From assembly GCA_964507995.1 (NCBI GenBank), contig CAZDTD010000001.1:1348-65347 (forward strand): 64,000 nucleotides of DNA, written 5' to 3'. The position numbers and the translations under genes are program-made. This DNA comes from an uncultured Pirellulales bacterium (GTDB lineage: Bacteria > Planctomycetota > Phycisphaerae > Sedimentisphaerales > Anaerobacaceae). Under the pieces are notes generated by a model, which saw only the letters and a list, made by a program, of their open reading frames with translations, did not search any database and was not told the origin of the DNA. Within the stretch, counting starts at the first letter, position 1, and every line of letters starts with the position of its first letter. Shown here one piece after another: positions 25,591 to 62,484 of this stretch.

Positions 25591-25727
25591 CCTGGAACGG
25601 AACGTGTCGGTGGCACACAACTCGAGCAAATCGGTGGGTGACGCGCAAGGATTTGTACGTTTCGTCGGTCCTCACGGAGTCGGCGCTTCGCGGTTCTTGG
25701 CCGAACCACCTAAAGGTGGAGACTCGG

Positions 25728-29489: not shown

Positions 29490-29512
29490 GTCGCCGACGA
29501 TGGGACATCGAC

Positions 29513-33016: not shown

Positions 33017-33063
33017 GAGAAGACTCTCCAATAGATGCTACACGAAATTCAAGTCATCGCTCG

Positions 33064-35670: not shown

Positions 35671-35713
35671 GATTGGCTCCTTAGGTTACTCGCTGTCCAT
35701 CCGGATGCGGCTT

Positions 35714-36226: not shown

Positions 36227-36256
36227 CGATAGATTCCCTCAAGAAGGCCAAGACGC

Positions 36257-39785: not shown

Positions 39786-40085
39786 CTACGCCGCCGTACG
39801 CTTGCTGCTCGGGAGCGTGATCTCGGGCGTCTGCTCCTCGCCGTGGCTCGCAGGAATCGCATGGGGCGCCTTGGCGGACATGATGGCCAATGCCACAATG
39901 ACAGACAAATCGATGAGCAGTCCGATCCCGAAGGCTGCTTCTACATCACCGCCATTGGCCTCAATGGCCAACCCCAGCAGGAAGGCGCAGACGAAGCCAA
40001 TCACCATCGGCGTCAAAGCCCAGCCCTTCCAACCCCGTTTCCACGCCTTGCAGGTCAGGCCAATCTCAATCAATAGAGTGATCAT
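39786..40085 (-). CDS. Small membrane protein (99 aa, 2-3 TM helices)
   Basis: ATG preceded by GAAAGGAAGG. Hydrophobic segments 'WALTPMVIGFVCAFLLGLAI' and 'FGIGLLIDLSVIVALAIM'. Confidence 0.65.
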   Translation of the reverse strand: MITLLIEIGLTCKAWKRGWKGWALTPMVIGFVCAFLLGLAIEANGGDVEAAFGIGLLIDLSVIVALAIMSAKAPHAIPASHGEEQTPEITLPSSKRTAA

Positions 40086-46300: not shown

Positions 46301-49300
46301 TTGAGTCGTTCGCAAAACCACCTGTCCCTTCGCATCCGTCAGCAAGATGGACTTGCCGTCGCCTGCGACATGTACCCAATTTCCGTCGTCTTTCTGCCAC
46401 TGGTCGACGAGCCGTCGAGACAGTTGCATATTCGAGGGGCACCAGGCCCAGAGCTGATCCTCCAGGCGCAGGAACTGCCCGACCCCCTGGATCGGTTCCG
46501 TCGTCCAGGAATGGGTTTCGAACGAGTACCGCGCGACAACGCCGGACTCGTCCGCCCGGTAGAGCGTGCCTCTCTCATCCGTGCAGACAGCGGCAGTGCC
46601 CGGGGAGGGGCTGGCCGGGAACCGTTCGCCGATCAGCACCATCGGCACGGACGGTGGTTCCGTGGAGGGCTCGAAGGCAGCCGGCAAATCCGCTTTCAGG
46701 AGCCATCGGTCTGTGCCGTCCTTTTGCACCAATCCATAGAAATGAGAGCTGCTGATGTCCCCCCGGATCCGACCGCTCGCCTCCAGAATCGTCCTGGTGA
46801 CTTGCCAGCCTGCCTCGGGCGAGTTTCTCGACAAGAGCACTGCCTTGTCGTTGCCGACGGCGACCACCTTGTCCGACCGTCCCTGGCAGGCGAGCAACTG
46901 CTCGACCGACCCGCCCGGCTCCATGATGGAATTCCAGCTCCAAGGGCGTCCCGCTCGTCGGCCGTAAGCCGCAACGACTCCGTCGCCCGACGCAACGATC
47001 AGGTCCTGTCCTGCCTCCACCGCAGCAGTCAGACGCCCGCGGACCGGACAGCGACTGGCCTCCAGGATCGCCACCGGACGATCCTTGTCACCGTCGGAGA
47101 TGGCCTGCAGCCTGCCGTCTGCGTCCAGAACAACCACGACAGAACCCTGCGTCCCAGTGACCTGGCGTACTCGCATGCTCTCGCCGGACGCCGTGCGGAC
47201 GATCTCCCAGGCGTCCCCTTCATCCGTCCATCGCCACAATTGTCCGGTCCCGGATCGCCCGTAGAGATATGCGGCGCTTGCCGCGAATTCGACAATACTC
47301 GTGGCCACGTTGGGCTCGTAGGTGTGCCAGCTATGTTCCTGTGCGTCGTACCGTCCAGTACGCGCAGGTGTCGCGACAAACAATCGTCCTTTGAACACGG
47401 CGCCTGCCTTGACATTGGCCAGTGTATCGGCAAAACCGTCGCCCACCAGCGTTCTCATGGGGACCGCGCCACTGAAGGGATCGCTCATTAGGATATTGCC
47501 ATTGGCCTTCACCGCCACAACCGTGCCATGGCCGGCGTTGATGCGTGTGACGCCGTCGGTGGCCCGCACCCAGTCACTGCTGTCTTGCGGCCGGCAGAAC
47601 AGGACATTCCCGGTGTCGAGAAGCCACAATCCACCTCGAGTGACCGCGAGGTTCCCGACGGCGCCGGCGCCAGGCGGCAGAGGTATGCTGGTCCACTGGT
47701 GCGTCGCAAGATCGTAACGGCCCACCTCCGGGCCGTGCGCCGAGAGGCCGTACCGGTTCGTGTCCGGACCATGGGGCGCAACGTAGAGAACCGTTCCGTC
47801 CACCGCGGCCGCAGTCCACGCACGCTGGTCGCCCAGCAACGCGGTGGCCTCGACGATAGTCCTCTTCTCGGTGTCGCCGAGGGTCTTCACCCACAGACGG
47901 TAGGATGGCCCGTCCTCGGCAATCACCACGACGCGATGACTGTCTCCGTAGACGTCCACAACCGATAGCTCCTCCTGCGTCCAGATCCCTTTGCCGGGAG
48001 GACCGTCCGCCGGCGGCGGCGTGGCAACACCGGACGAACTGTCTGCACGACGGGTGTCCGTCACAGCCTGAGCCAGCGCACAGGAGTACAGGGCTTGTTT
48101 ATTGTCGATGGCCCACAGCCGGTCGATCGCTATGATCAGACGCTGCAATCCAGGAATGGGCTCGATGGCCGTCCACCGATGTGTCGTAGCGTCATAATGA
48201 CCGATGCTCTGCTCCGAGCCGACGACCAGATGAGAGCCTTGCGAGACCGCGGTTGTGATGCCCTTGGGGTCGATCTGAATGCCGCCGCCGGGGATGACCG
48301 TGGACCACACGCTTCCATTGTAGAAGTGCAGGCTTCGGTCCGATCCGACCTGTACGAGACGCGGACCGGACGCGTCGAGGTCCAACGACCCGTCCACAGG
48401 CGCCTCCTGGCCGGCGCCGGCATCGACGGCAAAAGCTCGGACCATCTCTCGACTGTTGCGCACGAAGGCTCCGATTCCTTTGTCGCGCGTTCCGACGAAG
48501 AGAGCGGGCTGGCCTTCAAAGGTCCCGTCGGTCGCCGCGGTGATGTCGCCCAATTCCAGGCCGGGGAAACGACGCGGTCCGATGCTGTACTTCCAAGGGT
48601 TGGTATGGCGACCGACGTTCTCCCGCTGGGCCATGTAGACGCAGGCGGGGGAATTCGCTGTCTTCGGTTTCGCCTTCACAAAGATCGCAGGCGCTGCGGG
48701 CACGATCTCCTGAACGGTGGAGTCGTGGAGACCGGCATCGATCACCTCCAGCGACTTGGCCGACGCCGCACGAATACGATGAAGACCGTTGCCGCCGACC
48801 CAGGCGGTGCACTCTTCGGTGTACGTATCCACGCCAAGGGTCAGATCATCAGACCGCGGCCAGGAGTCCGCCGCAGCCGAGCCGGTCATCTGGTGGCCAG
48901 CGGTCTGATAGAGCCCCGCGCGCAGCTTGCCTGTGTCCTGTGGGTCGCGATAGATCATCCACAGGGCATCGTGGGCATCGTCTTGGCCGAAGCGCAGAAG
49001 CGATTGGCGACTCAAGCCCGCAGCGCTGCCCTCGCCGATCAGGGCTCGCATCTGGTCAGCCCCGCCGTCGCCGAGGTTCACGCGCAGCCTGCCCAGGCCT
49101 CTATCGTTCGTAAGATAGGCAAGGTCCGCGGTGTTCGATGCGGCGTCGGATTCCGTCGTGTGGATCGTCCTGACGTTGTCGCCCACCAGGCCCGACTCCC
49201 CGTCCACGTGTTGGGTCTTCGCCCAGCCTCTGGAAGACCAGTGCCCCAGGTCGATCCCTCCCGTGCCGGCAACAGCCAGGATGCCTCCCCCTGCCATTTC

Positions 49301-50162: not shown

Positions 50163-52334
50163 CTACTCCAGTTCAGGGATGTCATCGGGCCGGCTGGTGT
50201 CCTCGTCAGGCGGTGCGTCCGGGCGCCGCCGATCCACCGTTCGGGCCATCGCCCATATCCGGCGGATTCGGCTGTCGCCACAGGAGGCATAGAGGCACGC
50301 TGCCAACCAGCACAGCTCCCACCACATCGCGGTACCCTCACTTAGATGCTCGATTTCCTGCTCGACCGCCATGCCCGCCAGTTGACGAATGCGCCGATCT
50401 GCGTTCTTCACGCGATACTCCGGCTCGCCGCATGCCTGGGCCAGGCTCAGAGCCTTGCCCCTGTGCTCGTCAAGTGCGGTCAGTGGCGGAACACGACGCT
50501 CCTGGCGATCCGACAACCACGGGAAGCGAGCCTGGTTGCCTTTGTGTCTTTGGATACATAACGAAGTGAACGCGCCAACATAGGCCAGTCTCACCATCGC
50601 GGTTTCGAACGCCGGTCCTACGTCTTGGGGTCCATCACTCGGCTCGGGTCCCGCGTTCTTGTTCTCCTCACTCAGGATGCTGCTGGCTTCCACATCCTCC
50701 GGCGACAGCAGCAATCTAAGATGTGCTATCAAGCGGTATCGCATCAGCAAGACGCACCGCAGGACGTGCTCCAGCAGATCACCTGCGAAACTCCTGCCGT
50801 CCAGGACTGGACCGCAGAAACGCTCGTAGCGATCGTACAGAACGAGACTTCCCGCGTGGGTCTGCTCCCGGTGCGACAGCCATTCCTCCAAACACCGTGC
50901 CGACAGGTCCAGCAGATGCAACGCGAGTTTTGCCTCTTCTCTGAGAGCATCGCTGGGGTCCTGGTCCCCCTCAGAGAGAGCCAGATCGCGGATCAACTGG
51001 TGTTGCGTCTCGCCCGTCTGACCCAACAACTCCGCGGCCTTGAGGAGATTCAGATGCGTCTGCTCCTCGCTGTCCTTGGAGCCGGCCCCGAAGACGTGAC
51101 ATTCGGCCTGTGCTTCTGTCAACGCTATCCAGGTGACGCGCAACTGACGCAATTGTCCGTTGTTGAACTCTGGCGGCGGCTCCCGCGACGGCCTCCACCC
51201 AGACTCGCCTGCCGGATCGTCGGCGGGCTTAGCTGGATCGGACTGCTTGGCCCACTCCTCGATTCTCCGGAGATAGGCGTCCAGGGGATCACTGGCGGGC
51301 TCGTCCTCGAACCGGCCGAACCTGGCGGATGCGTAACGGCACCATATCTCCTGTCGCATACGCTCAACGCGCTGCATGACGAACGCGGAGTCGATCGTCG
51401 GCATCCACTCGCGACAAGCCAGGAATCTCAAGACCCACGGAACCGGCCAAATCCGGCTGGCTCGAAAGAGCGTCGTCCACAGGTTGACGCCGGGGACCCG
51501 CAGATCGCGATCTGTCAGTCGGTCCGAGCACAGAAGCGTGTCGGGCACGCCTTTGGCCCGGATACATCGCAGGGCATCCAGATACAACGTCATCCGCGGG
51601 TCGCTTCCGATGTATTTGTCGAATTCTCGTTCGCAATTACCGATCTTGGCAATCGCGAAACCCGATGTGCCGATGCATACCATCACAACGAGCAACAACA
51701 CCAACAGGTCCGAGGGAACACCCAGGAAGAACCACAACATCCAGACCCCGACGAGGATCGCCGCGACTTTGAGCCAGGCCAATCCTGCCCTCGACCGCAA
51801 CTGCCGTGCGCCGGCGAGAAGGTCCGCGACAGCAATCCAAGGCTTTCTGACATACGAGGGGATCTTGCGGCACGCAGGACCAAGTACATGAAACACGAAT
51901 GAGACCGCCCGATGCATATGATTCCGCAGGAACAGCAGGGAACCCGCAGGGTGCAGCAGACTGTCCGTGATGCGGCACCACTTCGCCCGTGACAGAACGA
52001 AACAGATGGCCAGCACCATGACGGGGTAAGCGATCCACGAGTACCAGTGCATCCGGTACAACAACAGGTAGACAAGGACCGAGAAGAGCAGAACAAAGAA
52101 GGCGATCTTCCGGATATCACCCACCAGGCGGGATACAGCAGACAACAGACTCTTTCTTCTTCCATCGCCGGACGATCGTTTGGTCTTGCCCCTCAGATAG
52201 AACACCACGAGCAGGCACGCCGCGAGGGGCAGGCAGAACAACTCCCACGCATAGACGACATTCACGCAGAACCACTGCCCGTAGACGTCGACCCACTCGA
52301 ACAAGGCTTTTGCAGCGTCAGACACTCCCATCAA
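50163..52334 (-). CDS. Polytopic membrane protein (~8 TM helices) with helical cytoplasmic C-terminal half, unknown function
   Basis: The N-terminal 330 aa are rich in hydrophobic helices ('FCLPLAACLLVVFYL', 'IAFFVLLFSVLVYLLLY', 'VAAILVGVWMLWFFLGV', 'LLVLLLVVMVCIGTSGFAI'). A 4-nt overlap with the upstream gene (52331-52334). Confidence 0.8.
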   Translation of the reverse strand: MMGVSDAAKALFEWVDVYGQWFCVNVVYAWELFCLPLAACLLVVFYLRGKTKRSSGDGRRKSLLSAVSRLVGDIRKIAFFVLLFSVLVYLLLYRMHWYSWIAYPVMVLAICFVLSRAKWCRITDSLLHPAGSLLFLRNHMHRAVSFVFHVLGPACRKIPSYVRKPWIAVADLLAGARQLRSRAGLAWLKVAAILVGVWMLWFFLGVPSDLLVLLLVVMVCIGTSGFAIAKIGNCEREFDKYIGSDPRMTLYLDALRCIRAKGVPDTLLCSDRLTDRDLRVPGVNLWTTLFRASRIWPVPWVLRFLACREWMPTIDSAFVMQRVERMRQEIWCRYASARFGRFEDEPASDPLDAYLRRIEEWAKQSDPAKPADDPAGESGWRPSREPPPEFNNGQLRQLRVTWIALTEAQAECHVFGAGSKDSEEQTHLNLLKAAELLGQTGETQHQLIRDLALSEGDQDPSDALREEAKLALHLLDLSARCLEEWLSHREQTHAGSLVLYDRYERFCGPVLDGRSFAGDLLEHVLRCVLLMRYRLIAHLRLLLSPEDVEASSILSEENKNAGPEPSDGPQDVGPAFETAMVRLAYVGAFTSLCIQRHKGNQARFPWLSDRQERRVPPLTALDEHRGKALSLAQACGEPEYRVKNADRRIRQLAGMAVEQEIEHLSEGTAMWWELCWLAACLYASCGDSRIRRIWAMARTVDRRRPDAPPDEDTSRPDDIPELE

Positions 52335-53155
52335 TATGCTTCCCGTAACGTTTCCCTCTCGGCGATATCAATGTGCTCCAACATGGTTCGACACCGGTTC
52401 GCCAGATCGCCAAGCCTGCTCCCGACTTCTTCCTCGCGGATCGGCTCGACAACGTTCTCGTTCACGAGACCGTCTACAGTCACGACGCGAGACACAGACG
52501 TAGTCAACGGTCGGGCTTCCGGTGCGGCCCGCTTGGATCCAAACCAGACCTCCAGGCACCACCTGCGCAGAAATGCGATCATTCGGCCCAGCGCGGATCG
52601 CTGTGCGGATGTATCCGTGTACTGCGCGAAGCGCGGTGCTCTCATTTCCAAGCGCCGCGCTTTCTCAAGCCGCTCCGCCAATCCGTCCGACTTGCCTTGG
52701 TACTGTTTTGCCGTGTCGTTTCTCTTCTTCCCTTCTGCGTTCAGAGTCTCGACATCCGCCATGACCTCGCCGAATCGTTGCTTCCACGCGCGTCGGAGGA
52801 TGGGGAGCCGAGGCATCAGGACCGGCCAGGACGGCGGCCAGCCCTTCGGCACGGGTTCCGACGCCAACCTGTTCCCAACACGACCGAGCACCGCATGCCA
52901 GAAGCGCGCAGCCGGCGCGACCATCCACGAACCTGCACGTATGACCTGCGGTGCGTCAGGGAATATCGAACACATGCGATCGCGAACGCGCCGCATCCGG
53001 GCACACACCCCGCGGGGGCTGCCGGCATCCGCTTCACGGCCCAGACGCGCGTCGCCTTCCTTCTGGGCCGCTTTCAGTTCCTGAAGCTTCTGCATTTGCA
53101 GGGACATCTGATTTTCGATCTTGTCTGCCGTCATCGCTCGTTCCTGTTGTTGCAC
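52331..53155 (-). CDS. Hypothetical protein (274 aa)
   Basis: GTG start at 53155, or ATG at 53134 (RBS AGGAA). Its stop overlaps the start of the downstream membrane protein. No motif recognised. Confidence 0.65.
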   Translation of the reverse strand: MQQQERAMTADKIENQMSLQMQKLQELKAAQKEGDARLGREADAGSPRGVCARMRRVRDRMCSIFPDAPQVIRAGSWMVAPAARFWHAVLGRVGNRLASEPVPKGWPPSWPVLMPRLPILRRAWKQRFGEVMADVETLNAEGKKRNDTAKQYQGKSDGLAERLEKARRLEMRAPRFAQYTDTSAQRSALGRMIAFLRRWCLEVWFGSKRAAPEARPLTTSVSRVVTVDGLVNENVVEPIREEEVGSRLGDLANRCRTMLEHIDIAERETLREAY

Positions 53156-53208
53156 CCCAGTTCCATCCCGCGTTCATCCACTGCTTTCGGCTCCATAGCC
53201 TGCGGCCC

Positions 53209-56193
53209 TCAGATCCGAAACAACTTCTTGTACCACGGCTCGGGAGCCGGGCCCATCTCCGGCAGGTCTTTGGGTCCCAGCAACGCGAGAAGCTCCTTGT
53301 GAATCTTCTTGAGCTTTCGGAGCTTCCGATCCTGCAATCGTCTCTTCTCCATGATTATCCCGAAGTCGCGGAGAATCTCGCTCTTCTCCTTGTCTATTTC
53401 CTCGGCCATCGTGTTAGACGGCAGTTCCTTGGGCCCCACCAACGTACGAAGCTCCTCATGGATCTTCTTGAACTTTCGGAGCTTCCGACCTCGCAACCGT
53501 CCTCTTTCCATGAGGATCCTGAACTCGCGGAGAACCTCAGTCTTCTCCTTGTCCATTTCCTCGGCCATCGTGCCAAGCTGCTTGGCTTCGGCCTCGTTCT
53601 TCTTCTTGAGGGCGTCGAGCTTCGCCTTCTCGTCCTCCAATCTCTTCTCCTTTGCCTGGAGATTGGTCTGGTCGGCCTCCAGCTTCCTGCGCACCGGCTC
53701 GATCTGTTTGATTTCCGAATCGAGTTTGTCCGTCTGCTCATCGACCTCGTGCCGTTGCTTGCGAATTTGCAGGAGCTCGTCTTGGTGATCTTTGAATCGC
53801 TGGCTCAACTCTCGCCTCTTCTCGTCCAACTCGTGACGTTCCCTCGCGATGTCCTGTTTCACCACATCGATTTCCTGGGATTTCTTCTCGTTCTCCCGAG
53901 CCAGATCCTCGTTTTCTTCCGCCAGCGTTTCATTCTCCTGTGCCATCCTCTGGAGCGTTGCTTTTCGCGACTCCAGCTCAGCCTTTCTTTCTTGCAGCAG
54001 GAATTGCGCTTCGCGGAGCGCCTGGATCTTGCCGTCCAGCTCATCCACCTCTTGGCTGACGGTCTCGATCTGCTCGTTTGTCTCGAGCAGCGCTCTGTTG
54101 ACTTTCGCGTCCACCTCGGCCACTCTCCGCATGACGGCGGACTGCAGATCGGAGACGTCTTTCAAAGACGCCTTCAACTGCTTCTCGGACGCGCCGCACT
54201 TGCCGTCGACATCGACCAGACTCTTGCGTCTGTCCTCGAGCGCCTGATTGTCCTGGGTCAGCTTGTCGTTCACGTTCTGCAGACCCTGTTCGTATTCCGT
54301 CATCTTCTGGAGCGCTTCTGTGTGGGCCGACTCGTATGCCTTGAAGGCCGCCACGCCGCCCTGCATGAGCGTCTGGTTGGACTTCAGGACGCTCAGAAAG
54401 AACTTGTCCCAGGTCGCCAGCGTGCTCTCGATGGTGCGCTCCATCTCGCCGACCGCGTCGGCCAGGGTTCGGGTCTGTCCTTCGATCGCCCGAATGTTCT
54501 CGTCGACGACTTGCCAGTGCGTTTCCGCCGTAGAAATCCCCTCTTCCGCCGCGTTGAGGACCTGCTCCTGCAACTCCATGGCGTGCCGGGTGGCCTGGGC
54601 TACGCTCTGCGTCAGCTCCTCTTCCACATCTTGCGGGATTTGTCTTCGGAATTCGAGCAAATGCGCGCTGAACCGGTCGTTGAGAAATCGGAAGCATTCG
54701 AGATCGGTGAGCGGTTTCATGCCGGTGACATACAGGATCTCCCACGGCTGCCGTCCGTCGTCTCCATCGCGCTGCGGCAGCGTCCGCAGCAGCACAGGTT
54801 CGGTTGGATCCGCGTGACCTTCCCAGAGCAACGTGCGGATGAGGGACACAAGCGATTCATCTTCCAGTCGGGGACGTATCTCGTCTCCGTACCGCACGAA
54901 TAGCGGCAAGTGCCACTCGTGCCAGTCCGCGCGTTGGATGAAGACTTCGTCGGCAAGCTGCGTGAGCAACTGGCTGTGCGTCGCGGGACGGGTATCAATC
55001 ACTACGTGCAGGCCGTAGCGTTCCCCCTCGGTGGGATGCGGATCCTCGTAGAATCCATACTTCATGTGCTGCAAGTAGCCGTAGGGCTGTTCGAGCAGAC
55101 GACGAAAACTCGGATTCAACGCAGGCGCCGGCCCCGTGTCTTCACCGCCGGCCGCCAGCATCTGTCGGAATACGAAGGCCAGGTAGATGTTCTCGCGTCG
55201 AATCAGATGCGCAGTCCGGTGATCGCGGACGAGATCCTCGATCGCGCGCTGATGCCATGCAATGTCGTTCTCGATCGACTCTGCGGTAGCGGTCACGCTG
55301 CGACTGTCCCGCTTGACGTGCAGGTCCAGGACCGCATCCCCGGACGGGGAGCGGGACGTCAGGTACACGCTGGGCGCCGCCTCGTCCTGCGGCAGGTACA
55401 GGGGTGTCTTCTGGAACTGGAAGATGTGCCCGAACTCGCGCTCCTCCAGACACAACCAGCGAGGTTCCATCTTCGCGGGTTTGTTCTGGCCGCGGCCGGC
55501 GCGGTTGTTCCGCGGGGAGTCCGCACAGATCAGCACCATGCGGGATTGGGTATCCGTCAAATCGTACAGATGGTCCAGGTCCGTGAGCGGATGCTCGTAA
55601 TCCCACTCGACGTAGTAAGGGCAATCGGTTGCGTTATGCAGACGATAGAACGCCACCGCGCGGACAGCCTCGCGGTCACGTCCGAGTGTCCAGTCGCCCG
55701 GCGGGCAGAACCCTTTCGGGACCTGGCCGACCAACAGCAGATGTGTCAATCCGTCGCTCTCCCGACGGGGCTCGATGAATCCAACGCGGATGTCCCCGCA
55801 TCCCATGTCCAACAGTTGCGTGTGCCAGTCGCGGTACTGGCGGTCCTTCGCGTCGAACAGCGCGACTGCGACGCCATTGGCGCCCGGCGACTCCATGCGA
55901 GGAATCAACCGGATGCGCTGGAGCAACTTGTTGATCGTGTGAGACTTCCCTCCGGGAGGGTTCTTCGCATTTTCGAGACCGGGCACTCTCGCCAGCCGCC
56001 GCAACAGCGCGAAGCTGTCCGGATGAATCCCTCGAATCAGGACCGTGAAGTATTCCCTGCCGCTGGAGCCGGAGACGATGATCTCGTCGACATCGTTGCG
56101 ATTGAGGTGGAGCGCCTGGCGGTTTCGCAACGTCAGCGACAGGAACTCGACACAGGCGCCGAGGTCCTTGAATTCAACGCCGTAATCACTCAT
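53209..56193 (-). CDS. 994-aa protein: ~500-aa globular N-terminal region of unknown fold plus ~450-aa SMC-like coiled coil with tandem 53-aa C-terminal repeats
   Basis: RBS GGTGGAGTGAAGAGG. The coiled-coil region is Glu/Lys/Gln-rich ('LQERKAELESRKATLQRMAQENETLAEENEDLARENEKK'). C-terminal repeats 'MAEE.DKEK.E.LR.F.I.ME..RL..RKLRK.KKIH.EL..L.GPK.LP'. Confidence 0.85.
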   Translation of the reverse strand: MSDYGVEFKDLGACVEFLSLTLRNRQALHLNRNDVDEIIVSGSSGREYFTVLIRGIHPDSFALLRRLARVPGLENAKNPPGGKSHTINKLLQRIRLIPRMESPGANGVAVALFDAKDRQYRDWHTQLLDMGCGDIRVGFIEPRRESDGLTHLLLVGQVPKGFCPPGDWTLGRDREAVRAVAFYRLHNATDCPYYVEWDYEHPLTDLDHLYDLTDTQSRMVLICADSPRNNRAGRGQNKPAKMEPRWLCLEEREFGHIFQFQKTPLYLPQDEAAPSVYLTSRSPSGDAVLDLHVKRDSRSVTATAESIENDIAWHQRAIEDLVRDHRTAHLIRRENIYLAFVFRQMLAAGGEDTGPAPALNPSFRRLLEQPYGYLQHMKYGFYEDPHPTEGERYGLHVVIDTRPATHSQLLTQLADEVFIQRADWHEWHLPLFVRYGDEIRPRLEDESLVSLIRTLLWEGHADPTEPVLLRTLPQRDGDDGRQPWEILYVTGMKPLTDLECFRFLNDRFSAHLLEFRRQIPQDVEEELTQSVAQATRHAMELQEQVLNAAEEGISTAETHWQVVDENIRAIEGQTRTLADAVGEMERTIESTLATWDKFFLSVLKSNQTLMQGGVAAFKAYESAHTEALQKMTEYEQGLQNVNDKLTQDNQALEDRRKSLVDVDGKCGASEKQLKASLKDVSDLQSAVMRRVAEVDAKVNRALLETNEQIETVSQEVDELDGKIQALREAQFLLQERKAELESRKATLQRMAQENETLAEENEDLARENEKKSQEIDVVKQDIARERHELDEKRRELSQRFKDHQDELLQIRKQRHEVDEQTDKLDSEIKQIEPVRRKLEADQTNLQAKEKRLEDEKAKLDALKKKNEAEAKQLGTMAEEMDKEKTEVLREFRILMERGRLRGRKLRKFKKIHEELRTLVGPKELPSNTMAEEIDKEKSEILRDFGIIMEKRRLQDRKLRKLKKIHKELLALLGPKDLPEMGPAPEPWYKKLFRI
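53255..53572. repeat. Tandem direct repeat, 159-nt period, 2 copies (53 aa each), at the 3' end of the coiled-coil gene
   Basis: 'ctcggccatcgtg' occurs at 53401 and 53560. 'cttcttga.ctttcggagcttccga' recurs at the same 159-nt offset. Confidence 0.85.
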
Positions 56194-56299
56194 ACGAACC
56201 TCTTCACTCCACCATTGTCATTCATCCAACACTTGCCTGCCCTCGCGTCATCCGAGACGGTCGAAGGCTCTCATGCGTGCGCAAAGCACGACAGCACCG

Positions 56300-58177
56300 C
56301 TACGCCAGGCGGACTTGGTGTCGAACGCTGCTGCCTCGCTGTCTGACCCGGCCCATCACCGATTCCACGAATTCGCTTCGAAGCACCCGAAGAGCGACCT
56401 TGGGCAGTTCGCCCCGATTCAGCGCGGTGCTGGCTTCGCTTGTCGTCTTCGGGCACAGATAGAACCAGGAGGTTTCGCCTCTCTTGGCCAACTGCTCGTC
56501 AGCATCGGGCGCCGTCATATCCACGCCTATCAACGTCAGACTTTGTCGCGAGCGCATTTCGAAGCCGGAATGGCGCCCGACGACACTGAGAAACGTCGGC
56601 AGGTCGAGCATAGAACCAACCAGCACGAGATGCACGGCGTGGTACGGCCTGGTGCTCTGGGCCTCGTGACGCAGGAACGTACCGACGAGCGGATCGACCA
56701 TCTGCCCCGGCAGGAGATACCCGCGCCGGTGTCGGCGGGACTGGCTTACCTCCGGCAACAGGTCAAAGAACCCGGGAACGAGATTGTCGAAGGCCATCGC
56801 CTGTTCGATCCGGTTCTCCAGGACCTCCCGGGAGCGTCTCAAGGGCATCTTCCGAAGGTCGAATTTGCTGTGCACAACGGTGTCGCCCCCTTTCTGACGC
56901 ACGCCAAAAACGGCCACATCCACATCGACAGAAGCATACCGGCGCACGTGCTCCAGAGCCTCGTCGACGAAGACATGCCGACAGGCGTGCTCGAGGGCCT
57001 CTCGCAGGTCGCGGATCAGGTCGAAGGTCTGTCGTTTGGCCCACACGTACGCATGGCTGTACCTGTGCACGGCGGGACCGGAAAACTCCGGCGGGCCTTC
57101 AGCGCCCGCGCCGGTCACGAAACAGACCAGAGCCCTGTGCCGAGGCACGAGATCTCGCGGATTCTCGCGCTTGTAGACCAGAGGCTTTCGATTGAGAAGG
57201 ATGTCCGCCAGGGCCAACATACCACGAGATCTGCGATATTCCGGCATGAGGCACGACGGATTCTCAGACGGGTTGTCAAGAGTCTGCGCGCGGTCCCAGG
57301 CCTTGACCACCGACAACTCCGACGGCAGGATGCTGATCAAGGGGTCCTCGGGTAGCTTCACCTCCGCACGAGTCACTCCGGCGTTCGTCCCAGGCAGAAC
57401 GGATCGCGTATGCTTGATCGTCTCGGTTCGGTGCAGGGGAGGAGGATCGTAGTCGAGCGTCGGCTTGTTCGGCGCCTGCAGGCACGCCGCGACAACTTGA
57501 AAGTCGAGATACTTCTGTGGATTGGGTGTTTGGGCTGCCACGTATGCCACGAACAGCGGCGCGAGACCCGGGACCTGGGTCGTCTCGTCAGCCGGTCTCG
57601 GATAAGACACGGCGCCCTCCTTCCCCGTCTCGACCACCAGCGGCAGACGACCCAGCAACTCACCGCCACGGTAGTTGAAGACATCCACCGCCTGATCGCC
57701 CTCGGCCGTCTCCAGCCACGACAGACTCCCCAACGGACTCGCCTGCAGTTCACTCCAGACCCCGGCGAGTGCATGTACCATGGACTCCACGAGGATCCGT
57801 TCCACCTCCGGCTGAGCATCCTCAGGGGACTTGTCTCGGATGCTGCGCGCGACGGTCAGCAAAGGCGACCTCTCAATCCGCTCGACGAATTCCGTGTACA
57901 CCTGGCGTGGATCCCCCTGCGGCAAACCGGTTCCATGTATCGTAGCCGTCCGCTCACAGAGGATCATCCCCAGGTCGAACACAGGAGCCATCGCGCCGCG
58001 GTAGCCTGTCTGCACGGCCGGGCAATACCAGTGGTTGAACGCGCGCACGAACCAGCGGCGCAGCAGGAAGTCGTTTGTCCTCACCGCGCACGCGGCCAGA
58101 GATTGCATTGCGGCCTTCACGAAGGCAAGCTTCGCGAGGGCAGGCTCAGCACCGCTGTCGTGTTCCCATTGACCCAT
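56300..58177 (-). CDS. MoxR-partner protein with a possible degenerate vWA-like (MIDAS-less) Rossmann domain
   Basis: - Immediately downstream of the MoxR-like gene (30-nt gap).
- The strand/helix pattern 'ALVCFVTGAGAE...VDVAVFGV...HLVLVGSMLD...LTLIGVDM' resembles vWA beta1/beta2/beta4/beta5.
- There is no DxSxS motif.
- ATG at 58177 (RBS AAGGA) is preferred over GTG at 58183. Confidence 0.7.
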   Translation of the reverse strand: MGQWEHDSGAEPALAKLAFVKAAMQSLAACAVRTNDFLLRRWFVRAFNHWYCPAVQTGYRGAMAPVFDLGMILCERTATIHGTGLPQGDPRQVYTEFVERIERSPLLTVARSIRDKSPEDAQPEVERILVESMVHALAGVWSELQASPLGSLSWLETAEGDQAVDVFNYRGGELLGRLPLVVETGKEGAVSYPRPADETTQVPGLAPLFVAYVAAQTPNPQKYLDFQVVAACLQAPNKPTLDYDPPPLHRTETIKHTRSVLPGTNAGVTRAEVKLPEDPLISILPSELSVVKAWDRAQTLDNPSENPSCLMPEYRRSRGMLALADILLNRKPLVYKRENPRDLVPRHRALVCFVTGAGAEGPPEFSGPAVHRYSHAYVWAKRQTFDLIRDLREALEHACRHVFVDEALEHVRRYASVDVDVAVFGVRQKGGDTVVHSKFDLRKMPLRRSREVLENRIEQAMAFDNLVPGFFDLLPEVSQSRRHRRGYLLPGQMVDPLVGTFLRHEAQSTRPYHAVHLVLVGSMLDLPTFLSVVGRHSGFEMRSRQSLTLIGVDMTAPDADEQLAKRGETSWFYLCPKTTSEASTALNRGELPKVALRVLRSEFVESVMGRVRQRGSSVRHQVRLA

Positions 58178-58213
58178 TGCCACATCCTTTTCGCGCAGGT
58201 TCGCGCAATTGCC

Positions 58214-59464
58214 TTATGACTGTCCGAAGCGCCGCTTTCGTTCGTCCACGGCCTCTCGCAGCGGCGGGGCCGCTTCGAGATCTCGGAAACAGTACTTGAA
58301 CACGTCCAACTCATCGATCTCGAGCGCATCGTGACCTCTGAGCAGGGCCAACCCTCGAGCCAGGCTATACAGCTTGGAGTAAGAGCGGTCGGATATCTCG
58401 AATTCACGTCTCAAAGACTTGAAGGTCTTGAAGAACGCCTCCAGGAATCGCTCCTGACGATTGTCCATACGGTCCTTCAGACGACCGCCGTACTTCACAT
58501 GGAGCACCCGGTGCAGGAGGCGGAAATGGTTGACGCTCGCAACCTGCTCGATCCGGCCGGCCCGCTCTTGTTCCTGGGGGCTGCCGGGAAAGAGACTCTC
58601 ACAGGCCTGCGACAACGATTTCTTCAGCAGGTCTTGCGCATTCTCGAACGTGTCGTCGATAGGCAGACAGGGCACGCGCACCGGGAATCGGTCATACAGC
58701 GCCGACAGTTCCTTCTCTTCCGGCGGCTCATTACTGGCCCCGAAGACCATACACAACGGCACGCGCGTGGGTCGCCCGGCATTGTAGAAGAGCCGTTCGT
58801 TCATGATGCTCAGAAGCGCGTTGAGAATGGCGCTGTTGGCCTTGAAGATCTCATCCAGGAAGGCTACTTCCGCTTCGGGCAACAGGCCCAGGGTCTGGCG
58901 ATAGAAGATGGCATGGTCGATCATCAAGGACAGATGTGCCGGGCCCAGCAACTCTTCAGGAGTCGTGAATCGCGTCACGAGATACTCGAAGTACCCTCTT
59001 GACTCTTGTTGGCCGGTCCCTGCGAGAGTGGATCGTGCGCGCTCGGACCCCTCCGGCGCTGTGGCAACCTGCCCTGCTGTGTCCCCGACGGGCTGCACCA
59101 GCTTCTCCATCTCTTCCGCCAGCTCTGTAATGGTCATCGGCTGGTGCTGCAGACCCAGACCGTAGCTGAGCACGCGGAACACGTTGGACTTGGCGGTTCC
59201 GGGCGGACCCAAGGCCACCATCGGCACGTGTGCGATGAAGCAGGCCAGTCCCATCTCGATCAGCTCGCTGCGCCCGACGAAGCGATTGTTCAATTCCTCC
59301 TGAAGGCCCGTGACGGCCCGCAACAAGGCATCCATCAAGCCTTTGTTCTGGGACAGCTTGTGCGTTTGCGCCTCGGTGAGCTGTTCGATGGAGTCCCTCA
59401 CCTCCGTTGAACCGAACTTCTCACAGCCCTGCTGCAGCCAGTGGCCGAACTGGTCATGGGACAT
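58214..59464 (-). CDS. MoxR/RavA-like AAA+ ATPase
   Basis: Walker A 'ALGPPGTAKSNVFRVL', Walker B 'FLDEIFKANSAILNALLSIMNERLF' and sensor-1 'VFGASNE' give the RavA/MoxR-type pattern. Strong RBS GAGGAG. Confidence 0.88.
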   Translation of the reverse strand: MSHDQFGHWLQQGCEKFGSTEVRDSIEQLTEAQTHKLSQNKGLMDALLRAVTGLQEELNNRFVGRSELIEMGLACFIAHVPMVALGPPGTAKSNVFRVLSYGLGLQHQPMTITELAEEMEKLVQPVGDTAGQVATAPEGSERARSTLAGTGQQESRGYFEYLVTRFTTPEELLGPAHLSLMIDHAIFYRQTLGLLPEAEVAFLDEIFKANSAILNALLSIMNERLFYNAGRPTRVPLCMVFGASNEPPEEKELSALYDRFPVRVPCLPIDDTFENAQDLLKKSLSQACESLFPGSPQEQERAGRIEQVASVNHFRLLHRVLHVKYGGRLKDRMDNRQERFLEAFFKTFKSLRREFEISDRSYSKLYSLARGLALLRGHDALEIDELDVFKYCFRDLEAAPPLREAVDERKRRFGQS

Positions 59465-59504
59465 ATCCGAGTCTCCTCATGCGTTGACCTGTGTAAACCA
59501 CGAA

Positions 59505-61175
59505 TCATTCATGCGTGTAACGATAGGACCGGGCCGCGGGTACATTGCCCTCATCCCTGTCCTTGTCTTCTTCCTCCGGGACGCTTTGCGGAGCAATCTC
59601 CGCTGCCGGTTTCTTCCGAGTCTCTTCGGCAGCCAGTTCGGCGATCACGGGAACCTGACTGAGACGCTGGACCAACTCGCTCACCCTGTCCGCAAAAGCC
59701 TGTTGATCCCTCGGGTCGTCGTATTGAGGGTGCAGATGGCTGGTGGCAACCCGGGAGACGCCGAGCCAGTGTGTAATGATGTCTTCCAAAGAACGTTGAC
59801 AAGCCCGACGGCCCAGGTTCAGCGGCAGGGTCGCCTTGCCGGTTTCCGTGTACCCTACCAACCACAGGCCCAGACACGAGATGGCCGCACCTCGTCCGAC
59901 GAGCCAGCGTTCAAGGATCGCCTTGGCCAGGTCGTACCACATCCAGGCCCAGTCAGGCAGACGGTGGTCGGCTGTGCTCTGAGCCACTTGTTCTGCGCGA
60001 TGCGCCAGACGGCCGCACCAGCGGGCCAGCGGCACTCGCTCGTCACCTTCTTCAGCCCAGCGTTCCCACAGCAGCGACAGGTTCTCCGACTGCAAATTGT
60101 CCAATGTTGACCACAAGACCTGCGCCAGAAACGCATTCCAGCCATCTTCCACGCCGGGTGCCCTCGGCATCGCCTCCGCCAGTCGTTCGAGAACGTGTAG
60201 AATGCGATCGACATGCTCTGAAGAAGCCTGCGGATGGGACAGCCATTTGCCCATCTCGGAGTACAGATACTGGCGCAGCGGCCCCGCGGCCGGATCGCCG
60301 AACAGGGTATCGAGCCAATGCCAGGCCAGGTGGGTCTCGATTACCGTGTCTTGTTGCTGCGGCAGGATATCCGTCAGGAGCCGCGTGATGGGACTAATCA
60401 TCCGGATTCTGCCCCAGCGCGCGACCAATTCGTCAGGCATTGCCTGGGCAGTCGGCACGGGCGGCTCTACGTTGGAGCCACCTTGTTGGCCCAGGGATAT
60501 GGCAACACGCGCCGTTGTGCGCGGCATCATCCGTCGCTGCAACTGAATCGTCATCAGATGCATGACCGCCAGATCGCCGACACTGCAGTGAGACTCCTCG
60601 AACTGAACCAGAAACTGGTCCACATCGTCGCGCAGCGCGGCCTCCAACTGCGCATCGGCGGCACTATCCTTCTGCGGCGCCGCGTGAACCTCCGGCTTGC
60701 CTGTGAGGAAGGCCCGCCACCAGAGCCAGTTGTGGAGGGCGATGAGGTACCACACCAGCGCAAGGCTGGCACCGGGCCGTCGTATGGAGTCCGTAAGCAC
60801 CTGCTGTCTGAGCCACTTCTCCACTGCGTTGTAGGCCGCCACCGGCACGGGATGACACAGCGACTGTATGCGTGTCAACCATAGTTGGTCATAGGCTTCG
60901 CTGATCGCGGACTGGCACTGGTCGCTGGCCGTCACATACAACGACCATCGCAAGTCGAAAGACTCGCGCGGGCGGATTGGATTCTTGCACAGCGTGGGAG
61001 GGAAGCGGCCGGCGCCATCGTCGCGCAGCAGGTCCTCCATCATGTCGATGAGAACGCGGAATGTGGATTCCATGTTCCGTCGCTCTGCGGAGAGAATCTC
61101 CTTCGCCTTTTGAAGACCCTGCCTCTGTTCGGGCGTCTTCTGGGGATTGACAGCACTATCCGAACCAATAGACAT
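59505..61175 (-). CDS. All-alpha hypothetical protein (556 aa from ATG 61175; ORF open to 61262)
   Basis: The ATG at 61175 is preceded by AGGAAG. The upstream in-frame ATG at 61262 lies inside a 15-bp hairpin and lacks an RBS. Trp/Leu-rich helical sequence with no recognisable motif. Confidence 0.75.
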   Translation of the reverse strand: MSIGSDSAVNPQKTPEQRQGLQKAKEILSAERRNMESTFRVLIDMMEDLLRDDGAGRFPPTLCKNPIRPRESFDLRWSLYVTASDQCQSAISEAYDQLWLTRIQSLCHPVPVAAYNAVEKWLRQQVLTDSIRRPGASLALVWYLIALHNWLWWRAFLTGKPEVHAAPQKDSAADAQLEAALRDDVDQFLVQFEESHCSVGDLAVMHLMTIQLQRRMMPRTTARVAISLGQQGGSNVEPPVPTAQAMPDELVARWGRIRMISPITRLLTDILPQQQDTVIETHLAWHWLDTLFGDPAAGPLRQYLYSEMGKWLSHPQASSEHVDRILHVLERLAEAMPRAPGVEDGWNAFLAQVLWSTLDNLQSENLSLLWERWAEEGDERVPLARWCGRLAHRAEQVAQSTADHRLPDWAWMWYDLAKAILERWLVGRGAAISCLGLWLVGYTETGKATLPLNLGRRACQRSLEDIITHWLGVSRVATSHLHPQYDDPRDQQAFADRVSELVQRLSQVPVIAELAAEETRKKPAAEIAPQSVPEEEDKDRDEGNVPAARSYRYTHE

Positions 61176-61250
61176 TCTGATCTTCCTGCGCTGAATTCTG
61201 GAACTGCAACTGCCGATCGGCCCGTCAAACACGGAGCCGGTCAGGCGGGA

Positions 61251-61285
61251 AGGCTTCCGCATGCACGCGCTGCATCCGGAAGCCT
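61251..61285. other. Strong inverted repeat / hairpin (15-bp stem with 1 mismatch, 5-nt loop)
   Basis: 'AGGCTTCCGCATGCA-cgcgc-TGCATCCGGAAGCCT'. 14 of 15 positions pair; checked base by base. Confidence 0.7.
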
Positions 61286-62380: not shown

Positions 62381-62484
62381 GCCGTTCAGGTTGGCGCGTG
62401 CGTGGCTCACAGAGGACACCACACTGCATGACGGAGTCTCTGGAGTCCTCGCAAGACACATGGGCATTTCTGAAAGGTGGAGTT

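What the first reader, a model, noticed from the sequence alone, without database searches (positions are those of the whole stretch)
50163..61262. MoxR/RavA-like AAA+ operon with MIDAS-less vWA-like partner, coiled-coil giant and polytopic membrane protein, upstream of the beta-propeller gene
**Seen.**
- The minus-strand order is: 556-585-aa helical protein, MoxR-like ATPase ('GPPGTAKS', 'FLDEIFKA...NERLF'), 625-aa protein with a vWA-like strand pattern but no DxSxS, 994-aa globular + SMC-like coiled-coil protein, 274-aa protein, 723-aa ~8-TM protein, then the 3216-aa propeller.
- Gaps are 30-121 nt, with one 4-nt overlap.

**Established (from memory).**
- MoxR ATPases work with vWA partners.
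- 'MoxR-vWA-beta-propeller ternary systems' were defined computationally as NTP-dependent conflict systems by Kaur, Burroughs, Iyer and Aravind (eLife 2020).

**Inference.** This locus has the same three-part logic. It differs in having a membrane-anchored, effector-less giant propeller and extra coiled-coil and membrane components. It may be a divergent or expanded member, or a distinct system.
Basis: partly seen in the sequence, partly recalled or inferred. Interest (0 to 1): 0.7.

Follow-up and report, generated by a model that had tools for sequence, protein, structure and literature searches.

The report
Seven-gene MoxR and inactive-vWA membrane system
This is a rare but deeply conserved seven-gene operon that joins a MoxR ATPase and a metal-site-less vWA partner to membrane-associated scaffold proteins and a 3,216-residue membrane-anchored repeat protein, and it is an undescribed sibling of the computationally predicted MoxR-vWA "ternary" conflict systems.

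Summary
Seven co-directional minus-strand genes lie at 40391-61262: A 585 aa, B MoxR 416 aa, C 627 aa, D 994 aa, E 274 aa, F 723 aa and G 3,216 aa. Gaps are 30-121 nt, with one 4-nt overlap.

- **Synteny.** The same gene order recurs in about ten independent metagenome loci, down to about 18% identity of C.
- **MoxR (B).** B matches Pfam bpMoxR at 7.5e-47 and has the GPPGTAKS P-loop. That model also hits MoxRs of FtsH-type systems, so it does not single out propeller systems.
- **Partner (C).** C has no Pfam or PDB hit. Profile-profile comparison links it to ivWA-helical_N + ivWA proteins (96%, E 3.6e-9). Its C-terminal AlphaFold model shows the vWA element order. No DxSxS motif is present.
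- **Other genes.** A, D, E and F are orphan families. D carries a long coiled coil and a basic-aromatic C-terminal tail. F has 4-6 TM helices, not about 8.
- **Giant (G).** G has a 38-aa cytoplasmic tail, one TM helix and a uniformly conserved repeat ectodomain. Its hits to propeller families are all sub-threshold.

The locus lacks the defining vWA-propeller fusion and lacks FtsH. I rate it a new variant of a known kind. Its function is inferred only.

The parts
59505..61262 (-). Gene A: 585-aa (or 556-aa from ATG at 61175) cytoplasmic orphan protein, first gene of the cassette
Evidence: ORF. No Pfam, NCBIfam or PADLOC hit in the window copy or in 3 orthologues. No TM segment. Orthologues at 37-48% identity always sit directly upstream of the MoxR gene.
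58214..59464 (-). Gene B: MoxR-type AAA+ ATPase of the bpMoxR clade, RavA-like core
   Evidence: Pfam bpMoxR PF20030 at 7.5e-47 (159 bits) and AAA_5 at 5.5e-19. The closest solved structure is RavA 3nbx, 1.1e-29, over residues 158-271, with a variable insert of about 55 aa at 103-157. Nine orthologues keep GPPGTAKS, the DE of Walker B, ASN, DRF and SDR invariant, so the ATPase is predicted to be active.
56300..58183 (-). Gene C: 627-aa MoxR partner with an N-terminal helical domain, a conserved LPSEL linker and a C-terminal MIDAS-less (inactive) vWA-like domain
   Evidence: No Pfam or PDB sequence hit. hhalign of the family (A2) against Pfam-verified ivWA-helical_N + ivWA proteins gives 96.1%, E 3.6e-9, 308 columns, and 97.8%, E 1e-12 with L024 added. 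Against canonical vWA partners it gives E 8.1e-5, while controls give 0.27-0.95. The AF2 domain model has pLDDT 81.4 and the vWA element order. Foldseek finds only weak hits, which are enriched in vWA folds. No DxSxS motif.
53209..56193 (-). Gene D: 994-aa protein with an orphan globular N-terminal domain (~1-520), a ~400-aa coiled coil and a basic-aromatic C-terminal tail
   Evidence: Only coiled-coil-type, sub-threshold SMC, Rad50 and JetC hits. No Walker A motif. Orthologues at 39-53% identity. The N-domain profile finds only cassette orthologues among 5.8 billion proteins. C-terminal tails such as PWYKKLFRI, PWWLTFWKFWKR and GWLSLLRRWFGRKR suggest a membrane-binding amphipathic helix; that is inference.
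53260..53572 (-). Lineage-specific 159-bp x 2 tandem duplication inside the 3' end of gene D, encoding two 53-aa repeats
   Evidence: TRF reports period 159, 2.0 copies, 84% matches, score 454. The repeated peptide is visible. The repeats are absent from the orthologues' C-termini.
52331..53155 (-). Gene E: 274-aa charged orphan protein, the least conserved member
   Evidence: ORF. 27-40% identity to orthologues. No family hit. Replaced by one or two small genes in distant loci.
50163..52334 (-). Gene F: 723-aa membrane protein with 4-6 TM helices in residues 1-230 and a ~490-aa soluble orphan domain
   Evidence: Hydropathy peaks at residues 26, 74, 97 and 210. Orthologues carry 1-5 N-terminal TM segments. 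In L008 the TM part appears to be a separate gene. No family hit. Overlaps E by 4 or 1 nt.
40391..50041 (-). Gene G: 3,216-aa single-pass membrane protein with a 38-aa conserved N-terminal tail, a TM helix at 40-58 and a ~3,150-aa beta-rich repeat ectodomain; last gene of the cassette
   Evidence: One TM segment. The tail motif LEQxAR..PNFxPDL..THxGQRP is conserved. Full-length orthologues of 3,208-3,216 aa are collinear, with identity of 49-68% and 24-49% per 100 aa and no hypervariable stretch. Internal repeats reach 96% hhalign probability. All family hits are sub-threshold and all are to propeller families: F510_1955 at 1e-8, then Tectonin, Kelch_2, Reg_prop, WDR19 and PorZ_N. Genes downstream of G differ between loci.

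Best explanation
**What it is.** The locus is a conserved seven-gene operon, A-B-C-D-E-F-G. It forms a distinct subtype of the MoxR/inactive-vWA systems, the clade Kaur et al. 2020 split into 'FtsH' and 'beta-propeller' ternary systems.

**Shown here.**
- B is a catalytically intact, RavA-like MoxR AAA+ ATPase.
- C, always encoded directly after B, is homologous to the ivWA proteins. It has an N-terminal helical domain and a vWA fold that has lost the metal-binding MIDAS motif.
- C keeps the LPSEL motif about 47 residues before strand 1, as canonical MoxR partners do.
- D, F and G each carry a membrane feature: an amphipathic tail, 4-6 TM helices and a single signal-anchor.

**Inferred mechanism.**
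- D (with A and E), F and the short conserved cytoplasmic tail of G form a complex at the cytoplasmic membrane. The ~3,150-residue repeat domain of G lies outside the cytoplasm.
- The B hexamer, acting through C, uses ATP to assemble, remodel or switch this complex.
- With MIDAS gone, C probably holds its client through its highly conserved segment 239-345, which the model predicts with low confidence, and through its helical domain.

**Likely role.** By analogy with its relatives, the role is an ATP-gated, envelope-proximal sensing or defence switch. No recognisable toxin or enzyme effector is present, so this last step is the weakest.
For: - **Synteny.** All seven genes are orthologous in L003, L005 and L006. 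The same order holds in loci found through C relatives of only 18-37% identity.
- **MoxR.** bpMoxR at 7.5e-47, RavA core at 1e-29, and invariant catalytic motifs. The GxxxTAKS P-loop is the hallmark named in PMC7159879 section 22.
- **C equals ivWA-type.** hhalign gives 96.1%, E 3.6e-9 and 97.8%, E 1e-12. The targets are Pfam-verified as ivWA-helical_N + ivWA.
- **LPSEL spacing.** LLP[SH]EL lies 47 aa (56 in L069) before DxSxS in canonical partners. The spacing in C-family members P0009 and P0011 is about 48 aa.
- **Fold.** The AF2 domain model has the vWA element order.
- **Membrane features.**
- **G tail and uniform conservation.**
- **Specific pairing.** Of 80 other MoxR loci, only L018, one of the two nearest MoxRs, carries clear C and D relatives. 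L024 has a weak C-family hit.
- **Operon signals.** No minus-strand terminator-like site lies inside 50163-59500. The E/F junction overlaps.
Against: - No physical interaction, expression or phenotype data exist for this or any related system. The whole class is a computational prediction.
- No effector domain was found in any of the seven proteins.
- G shows no hypervariable region, which is unlike many conflict-system sensors.
- The C-terminal domain of C alone does not match vWA profiles (E 0.22), and no Foldseek hit is better than E 0.14. The vWA assignment therefore rests mainly on the N-terminal half, the start of the domain and the element order.
- The membrane-binding role of D's tail and the client role of G's tail are inferences from sequence only.
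- The propeller fold of G is unproven.
Confidence: 0.55

Rival explanations
1. The system is a dedicated biogenesis or quality-control chaperone for a giant envelope protein. The MoxR-ivWA pair, with A, D, E and F, serves only to insert, fold or anchor the 3,216-residue protein G. G would be a structural, adhesive or surface-architecture component of a planctomycete-like cell. There would be no conflict or sensing role. This parallels the RavA-ViaA and MoxR/CoxD-CoxE maturation chaperones.
For: - MoxR-vWA pairs with known function are assembly and maturation chaperones (PMC7159879 section 8).
- The nearest solved relative of B is RavA.
- G is conserved uniformly along its length and keeps a near-constant length of 3,208-3,216 aa. 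That fits a structural protein better than an arms-race receptor.
- No effector domain was found.
Against: - Five additional dedicated orphan proteins, including a ~950-aa coiled-coil protein, are many for a simple chaperone.
- The cassette is very rare: 59 cluster representatives among 1.84 billion proteins, and none in 185,579 GTDB species genomes with the patterns used. Its flanks vary and include mobile and conflict-type genes.
- B's closest relatives belong to systems interpreted as conflict systems.
Confidence: 0.3
2. The locus is an ordinary, if expanded, member of the MoxR-vWA-beta-propeller ternary systems of Kaur et al. 2020. C would be the vWA component, G the propeller-bearing third component, and A, D, E and F the 'bpX' accessory proteins.
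For: - bpMoxR Pfam hit and GxxxTAKS P-loop.
- A divergent vWA lacking the aspartates is allowed by the published description.
- G has an N-terminal TM helix and propeller-family hints.
- A weak bpX1 hit lies in G (E 0.2).
- The paper mentions unassigned alpha and alpha+beta accessory proteins.
Against: [quoted passage not shown] C ends within about 15-40 residues of its vWA-like domain and has no propeller.
- G has no TPR region and no variable N-terminal globular domain.
- No bpX family reaches threshold in any of the proteins or in 3 orthologues of each.
- The bpMoxR model also hits FtsH-type loci, so it does not discriminate.
- C aligns best with the FtsH-type ivWA architecture.
Confidence: 0.12
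3. The genes are merely neighbours, with no functional link between the MoxR pair and the giant gene.
For: The gaps of 106 and 121 nt before D and G could hold internal promoters. No promoter or terminator signal exceeds chance.
Against: The order and orientation of all seven genes are conserved in about ten independent loci, down to about 18% identity of C. The flanking genes differ between loci.
Confidence: 0.03

Closest known systems
FtsH ternary systems, simple type (Kaur, Burroughs, Iyer & Aravind, eLife 2020; Pfam ivWA-helical_N PF19996 + ivWA PF19997)
   Same: - The MoxR belongs to the same Pfam family (bpMoxR) and has the GxxxTAKS P-loop.
- The partner protein has a large N-terminal helical domain fused to a highly divergent vWA domain that lacks the metal-binding residues.
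- C aligns to such proteins over 308-383 columns.
- The partner gene lies immediately downstream of the MoxR gene.
   Different: - No FtsH-type double AAA+ protein occurs in the cassette in any locus.
- No fvmX, NEFF1 or radical-SAM components were found.
- C is too divergent to hit the Pfam ivWA models directly.
- The accompanying genes A, D, E, F and G are unique to this cassette.
MoxR-vWA-beta-propeller ternary systems (Kaur et al. 2020, subsystem 4; Pfam bpMoxR, bpX0-bpX6)
   Same: - Same MoxR clade and P-loop variant.
- A divergent vWA is possible under the published description.
- A membrane-proximal component with beta-propeller-like repeats and an N-terminal TM segment.
- No conventional effector.
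- Occurrence in planctomycete-like genomes.
   Different: - The defining vWA-propeller fusion is absent.
- The TM/propeller protein is about 3,200 aa, has no TPR and no variable globular N-terminus, and is uniformly conserved.
- No bpX domain is detected at significance.
RavA-ViaA (E. coli MoxR AAA+ with its vWA partner)
   Same: - It is the closest solved structure to B (1e-29 over the AAA+ core).
- The two-gene ATPase-then-partner order is the same.
- The partner has a helical N-terminal region followed by a C-terminal vWA domain.
- Both act at the inner membrane.
   Different: - B lacks the RavA-specific regions. Its NCBIfam RavA score is 118 bits against a cut-off of 681. It also has a ~55-aa insert.
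- C has no MIDAS motif.
- Five extra conserved genes accompany the pair.

Membership tests
MoxR-vWA-beta-propeller ternary system (Kaur 2020 subsystem 4) | MoxR AAA+ of the bp/FtsH clade with the P-loop variant GxxxTAKS | tested here: met
   bpMoxR PF20030 at 7.5e-47. GPPGTAKS is invariant in 9 orthologues. Definition taken. This feature is shared with FtsH systems.
MoxR-vWA-beta-propeller ternary system (Kaur 2020 subsystem 4) | [quoted passage not shown] | tested here: not met
   The AF2 models of C show the vWA-like domain running to about residue 608 of 625, with no further domain. No propeller family hit in C or in 50 relatives.
MoxR-vWA-beta-propeller ternary system (Kaur 2020 subsystem 4) | [quoted passage not shown] | tested here: inconclusive
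   G has an N-terminal TM helix and sub-threshold propeller-family hits plus internal repeats. It has only a 38-aa conserved N-terminal tail, no TPR hit and no variable region.
MoxR-vWA-beta-propeller ternary system (Kaur 2020 subsystem 4) | Accessory bpX0-bpX6 domains (present in a subset of systems) | tested here: not met
   No bpX hit in A, C, D, E or F, or in 3 orthologues of each, at E <= 0.1-0.5. The only hit is bpX1 at E 0.2 inside G. Profile-profile comparison against the bpX models could not be run.
FtsH ternary system (Kaur 2020 subsystem 3) | Highly divergent vWA fused to a large N-terminal all-alpha domain (ivWA-helical_N + ivWA) | tested here: met
   hhalign of A2 against A10 (two Pfam-verified ivWA proteins) gives 96.1%, E 3.6e-9. 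With L024 added it gives 97.8%, E 1e-12. The feature is met only at profile-profile level; the Pfam HMMs themselves do not hit C.
FtsH ternary system (Kaur 2020 subsystem 3) | Third component with two FtsH-type AAA+ domains | tested here: not met
   No second AAA+ protein lies in the cassette, in the window or in L003, L005, L006, L008, L009, L012 or L016. The only other AAA+ protein in the window is a ClpB-like gene about 27 kb beyond the end of gene G.
Canonical vWA domain (Pfam VWA/VWA_2/VWA_CoxE) | MIDAS motif DxSxS after strand 1 and a significant match to a vWA profile | tested here: not met
   No DxSxS motif. No Pfam VWA hit. The position after strand 1 reads G-A-G-A-E. The family does match canonical MoxR-partner vWA proteins weakly by hhalign (E 8.1e-5, 77 columns; controls >= 0.27).
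Canonical vWA domain (Pfam VWA/VWA_2/VWA_CoxE) | vWA (Rossmann-like) fold | tested here: inconclusive
   The AF2 domain model (pLDDT 81.4, pTM 0.82) has the order b1-a1-b2-b3-a-a-b4-a-b5-a-b6-a. Foldseek against the PDB gives no hit below E 0.14. The weak list is enriched in vWA folds: Rpn10, PilB pilin, Ku, Sec23/24 and collagen VI.
RavA-ViaA | Full-length RavA equivalog (including the LARA domain) with a MIDAS-bearing ViaA partner | tested here: not met
   NCBIfam RavA scores 118 bits against a cut-off of 681, and only residues 158-271 align. The partner lacks MIDAS.

The most novel reading that the evidence does not exclude
The cassette is a previously undescribed trans-membrane signalling or defence machine. 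A ~3,150-residue extracytoplasmic propeller-like array (G) would detect something at the cell surface, such as phage, an epibiont, a neighbouring cell or a polymer. It would report through its 38-residue cytoplasmic tail and through F to a coiled-coil scaffold (D, A, E). The state of that scaffold would be set by a MoxR/inactive-vWA ATP-driven switch. This would be an effector-less or membrane-effector branch of the ternary systems, with five new protein families.
Probability: 0.25. Interest if true: 0.8.

Novelty: new variant of a known kind. Interest (0 to 1): 0.55.

Why it matters
MoxR-vWA ternary systems are known only from comparative genomics, and their beta-propeller branch was called enigmatic because it lacks effectors.

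This locus defines a third architecture on the same MoxR/inactive-vWA core. It has a fixed set of five orphan families and one of the larger bacterial membrane proteins.

- **Conserved module.** It shows that the MoxR plus MIDAS-less vWA pair is the conserved module, and that FtsH or a vWA-fused propeller can be exchanged for other partners.
- **Shared motif.** The LPSEL motif sits about 47 residues before the vWA domain. It is shared by canonical and inactive partners and is a testable candidate for MoxR docking.
- **Tractable test case.** The cassette is compact, about 21 kb, and could be used to ask what such ATPase pairs do to membrane complexes.

The practical significance is limited for now. 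The hosts are uncultured, probably Planctomycetota, and no function is demonstrated.

Tried and rejected
- **Family scans.** Pfam, NCBIfam and PADLOC scans of all seven proteins and of three orthologues each gave hits only for the MoxR. D gave non-specific coiled-coil hits.
- **PDB sequence and profile searches.** Searches with C (A1, A3) and G (A6) found nothing.
- **Foldseek on C.** The full-length model gave nothing below E 0.2. The domain model gave nothing below E 0.14.
- **C against the window's own classical vWA.** hhalign of the C-terminal domain of C against the 253-aa vWA found no similarity. The domain alone against canonical partners gave E 0.22.
- **GTDB genome scans.** Scans with the C family and with the G N-terminus found no relatives. 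One attempt failed because the alignment was too divergent.
- **Cross-comparison of families.** Families A-F show no relationship to each other by hhalign.
- **Search in related loci.** A, E and F have no relatives in FtsH-type or other MoxR loci. D has only a weak hit in L038, at 32% probability.
- **D N-domain search.** The profile search over 5.8 billion proteins returned only cassette orthologues.
- **Downstream genes.** The HSP70-like gene and the 891-aa gene downstream of G were considered as extra members. They were rejected because the downstream genes differ in L015 and L016.
- **Divergent vWA gene.** The classical vWA gene at 62398-63159 was considered as the true MoxR partner. It was rejected because it is not conserved next to the cassette, apart from vWA genes near L003.
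- **Self-BLAST of G.** It found no repeats. Repeats are visible only at profile level.
- **Literature.** Searches found no description of this cassette.

Full report
**1. The observation**

The ORF list confirms seven co-directional minus-strand ORFs:

| Gene | Coordinates | Length |
|---|---|---|
| A | 59505-61262 | 585 aa (556 aa from an internal ATG, as gene callers chose) |
| B | 58214-59464 | 416 aa |
| C | 56300-58183 | 627 aa (625 aa from ATG) |
| D | 53209-56193 | 994 aa |
| E | 52331-53155 | 274 aa |
| F | 50163-52334 | 723 aa |
| G | 40391-50041 | 3,216 aa |

- The gaps are 40, 30, 106, 53 and 121 nt.
- E and F overlap (TATTGATGG) by 4 nt with the TTG start, or by 1 nt with the ATG start.
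- The quoted motifs are present in B, and C contains no DxSxS.
- Two descriptive points need correcting.
  - F has four strong hydrophobic segments, at most 5-6, all in the first 230 residues. About 490 soluble residues follow.
  - The 'SMC-like' part of D is coiled coil only. It has no P-loop, and its scores lie far below the family cut-offs.

**2. Conservation**

- A search with C over 5.8 billion proteins found 11 relatives, none with a Pfam domain.
- In the three long contigs that carry relatives, the same seven genes follow in the same order.
- Identity to the window's proteins in those three loci:

| Gene | Identity |
|---|---|
| B | 62-69% |
| G | 40-63% |
| C | 42-58% |
| D | 39-53% |
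| F | 36-47% |
| A | 37-48% |
| E | 27-40% |

- An exhaustive HMMER search with the C alignment over 1.84 billion cluster representatives found only 59 proteins at E <= 0.001.
- Contexts of distant members (18-37% identity to C) again show the cassette. The order is A, then bpMoxR, C, D (860-1,065 aa), one or two small genes, F (445-745 aa) and a giant of 3,199-3,428 aa.
- Genes downstream of G differ between loci, so the operon ends at G.
- Flanking genes also differ. They include DUF1598, a Rhodopirellula-type family, in L006 and L009.
- A distant G homologue is annotated as coming from a Planctomycetes MAG. The host is therefore probably Planctomycetota; this is inference.
- No relative was found in the GTDB species genomes with the patterns used.

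**3. The ATPase (B)**

- B matches Pfam bpMoxR at 7.5e-47 (159 bits, cut-off 27) and AAA_5.
- Its closest solved relative is RavA (1e-29), but only over residues 158-271. A variable insert of about 55 residues lies at 103-157.
- The Walker A motif (GPPGTAKS), the Walker B DE pair, ASN, DRF and SDR are invariant in nine orthologues. An active ATPase is expected.
- Kaur et al. name GxxxTAKS as a peculiarity shared by the FtsH and beta-propeller ternary systems.
- The Pfam bpMoxR model also scores MoxRs whose partners are FtsH-type ivWA proteins: L020 at 1e-62 and L026 at 4e-59, with fvmX7 also present in the L026 locus. The model marks the clade, not the propeller subtype.

**4. The partner (C)**

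*Direct searches failed.*
- Pfam, NCBIfam, PADLOC and PDB sequence and profile searches gave nothing.

*Structure prediction.*
- AlphaFold2 on the full protein gave pLDDT 69.6 and pTM 0.71.
- The model shows an N-terminal helical domain and a small beta unit. Residues 239-345 are strongly conserved but modelled with low confidence. A C-terminal alpha/beta domain follows.
- Predicted alone with 34 sequences, that domain reached pLDDT 81.4 and pTM 0.82. Its element order is b1-a1-b2-b3-a-a-b4-a-b5-a-b6-a-a, the order of a vWA fold.
- Foldseek against the PDB gave no hit below E 0.14.
- The weak list is rich in vWA folds: Rpn10, the PilB pilin module, Ku, the Sec23/24 trunk and collagen VI. This is suggestive only.

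*The decisive evidence came from related loci.*
- A metagenome scan with the MoxR alignment returned 80 loci whose MoxRs are 29-43% identical to B.
- Only L018 has clear C and D relatives; L024 has a weak C-family hit.
- In the others, the downstream partner is usually a canonical vWA protein. VWA_2 was found in 13 of 27 neighbours scanned.
- In those canonical partners the motif LLP[SH]EL lies 47 residues before DxSxS, or 56 in L069.
- The C family has [IV]LPSEL about 48 residues before the equivalent position, which reads G/A/D-A-G-A-E. Some distant members retain D-x-S-x-x-M.
- hhalign of the C family against these canonical partners gives E 8.1e-5 over 77 columns. Reversed, shuffled and unrelated controls give 0.27-0.95.
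- Against two partners that Pfam identifies as ivWA-helical_N + ivWA, the C family gives 96.1% probability, E 3.6e-9, over 308 columns. The alignment spans the helical domain, the LPSEL region and b1-a1-b2.
- Adding L024 gives 97.8%, E 1e-12, over 383 columns.

C is therefore a very divergent member of the 'inactive vWA with N-terminal helical domain' class. Its C-terminal half alone is not significantly similar to vWA profiles (E 0.22). I treat the fold assignment as probable, not proven.

**5. The other components**

- A, D, E and F have no family hit in four copies each.
- They are unrelated to each other.
- Apart from a 32%-probability hit of D in L038, they have no relatives in FtsH-type or other MoxR loci.
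- A profile of D's N-terminal domain finds only cassette orthologues. Its invariant residues are mostly aromatic or aliphatic, which gives no sign of catalysis.
- D's coiled coil spans roughly residues 520-900.
- The orthologues' C-termini end in basic-aromatic stretches such as PWYKKLFRI, PWWLTFWKFWKR and GWLSLLRRWFGRKR. I read these as membrane-binding amphipathic helices; this is inference.
- The window's D also carries a lineage-specific 159-bp x 2 duplication.
- F orthologues have 1-5 N-terminal TM segments. In L008 the TM part seems to be a separate gene.

**6. The giant (G)**

- G has one TM helix at residues 40-58, preceded by a conserved tail with the motif LEQxAR..PNFxPDL..THxGQRP.
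- The arginine next to the TM helix suggests that the short N-terminus is cytoplasmic. About 3,150 residues would then lie outside; this is inference.
- Three full-length orthologues of 3,208-3,216 aa are collinear, with few indels. Identity per 100 residues is 49-68% and 24-49%, with no hypervariable segment.
- Profile self-comparison detects repeats across the ectodomain, with up to 96.5% probability and offsets mostly of 130-160 residues and their multiples.
- Plain BLAST sees no repeats.
- Family hits are all sub-threshold, but all are to propeller families:
  - F510_1955 at 1e-8 (35 bits, cut-off 175);
  - Tectonin at 7.7e-5;
  - Kelch_2, Reg_prop, WDR19 propeller and PorZ_N.
- I could not predict G's structure because the prediction jobs were exhausted. 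'Propeller' remains likely but unverified.

**7. Mechanism**

*Shown:*
- an intact MoxR ATPase;
- a cognate MIDAS-less vWA-type partner;
- strict co-inheritance with three proteins that bear membrane features and two soluble orphan proteins.

*From established knowledge of MoxR-vWA pairs (summarised in PMC7159879 section 8):*
- the vWA partner holds a client peptide, and the hexameric ATPase remodels it.

*Inferred:*
- C engages its client or the ATPase through the conserved segment 239-345 and the LPSEL motif. This motif is common to active and inactive partners, which makes it a candidate docking element.
- D, A and E form a membrane-tethered scaffold.
- F and the tail of G are the membrane clients.
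- ATP hydrolysis assembles or switches this complex.

*Role.*
- I favour an envelope-proximal sensing or defence role, for three reasons: the kinship of the core, the rarity and patchiness of the cassette, and its variable and partly mobile or conflict-type flanks.
- A biogenesis role for the giant protein remains a serious rival. No effector is present, and G evolves like a structural protein.

**8. Comparison and novelty**

- The cassette fails the defining feature of the beta-propeller ternary class, a vWA-propeller fusion.
- It also fails the defining feature of the FtsH class, an FtsH component.
- It shares their MoxR clade and the ivWA-type partner.
- No paper in the library describes it.

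I rate it a new variant of a known, purely computationally defined kind. It has five orphan families and moderate interest.

Noticed in passing
window 62398-63159 (+): A stand-alone classical vWA protein (253 aa, DNSGS MIDAS motif; Pfam VWA 1.1e-6, VWA_2 1.8e-6) is transcribed divergently from the cassette. L003 also has two vWA-like genes divergent from its cassette, but other loci do not.
   Followed up: partly
window 31718-38932 (-) and 39786-40085 (-): A set of same-strand genes lies directly downstream of the giant: small ORFs of 99, 116 and 170 aa, an 891-aa orphan, an 868-aa HSP70-like protein (PF00012 5.9e-53) and a 437-aa orphan. They are not conserved downstream of the giant in L015 or L016, so they probably form a separate HSP70-centred system.
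   Followed up: partly
window 25458-28259 (+): A 933-aa Ser/Thr protein kinase is fused to an FGE-sulfatase (FGS) domain. The FGS domain recurs as an effector in the Kaur et al. systems. An FGS fusion to an ivWA protein was also seen in L020.
   Followed up: no
window 4275-6568 (-) and 133-2628 (+): A Mu-type transposase (rve + Mu-transpos_C_2, 510 aa) has an adjacent 254-aa ORF. An SNF2-family helicase with DUF3670 (831 aa) is also present. Together they point to a mobile or defence-island-like context at the far end of the window.
   Followed up: no
window 9404-13711 (-): An FHA-domain protein (617 aa) lies next to a ClpB/ClpV-like double AAA+ protein (798 aa; AAA_2 4.2e-55, Clp_N). This is the only other AAA+ protein found in the window, and it is not FtsH-type.
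   Followed up: no
window 53260-53572: A 159-bp x 2 tandem duplication (84% matches) lies inside the 3' end of gene D. It encodes two 53-aa repeats that the orthologues lack.
   Followed up: yes
L020, L026 (metagenome loci): The Pfam bpMoxR model scores MoxRs of FtsH-type ternary systems (partners ivWA-helical_N + ivWA; fvmX7 nearby in L026) as strongly as it scores propeller-type ones. The family name therefore over-specifies the system type.
   Followed up: yes
L012 897-5984: In one distant cassette locus (NCBI GCA_036681025.1) a 1,695-aa RHS/YD-shell (TEN_YD-shell) protein lies just upstream of gene A. This is another conflict-type neighbour.
   Followed up: no
window 21449-25276 (+) and 29300-31702 (+): A 1,275-aa ORF has no Pfam hit. 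An 800-aa protein carries three He_PIG Ig-like repeats (3.9e-55).
   Followed up: no
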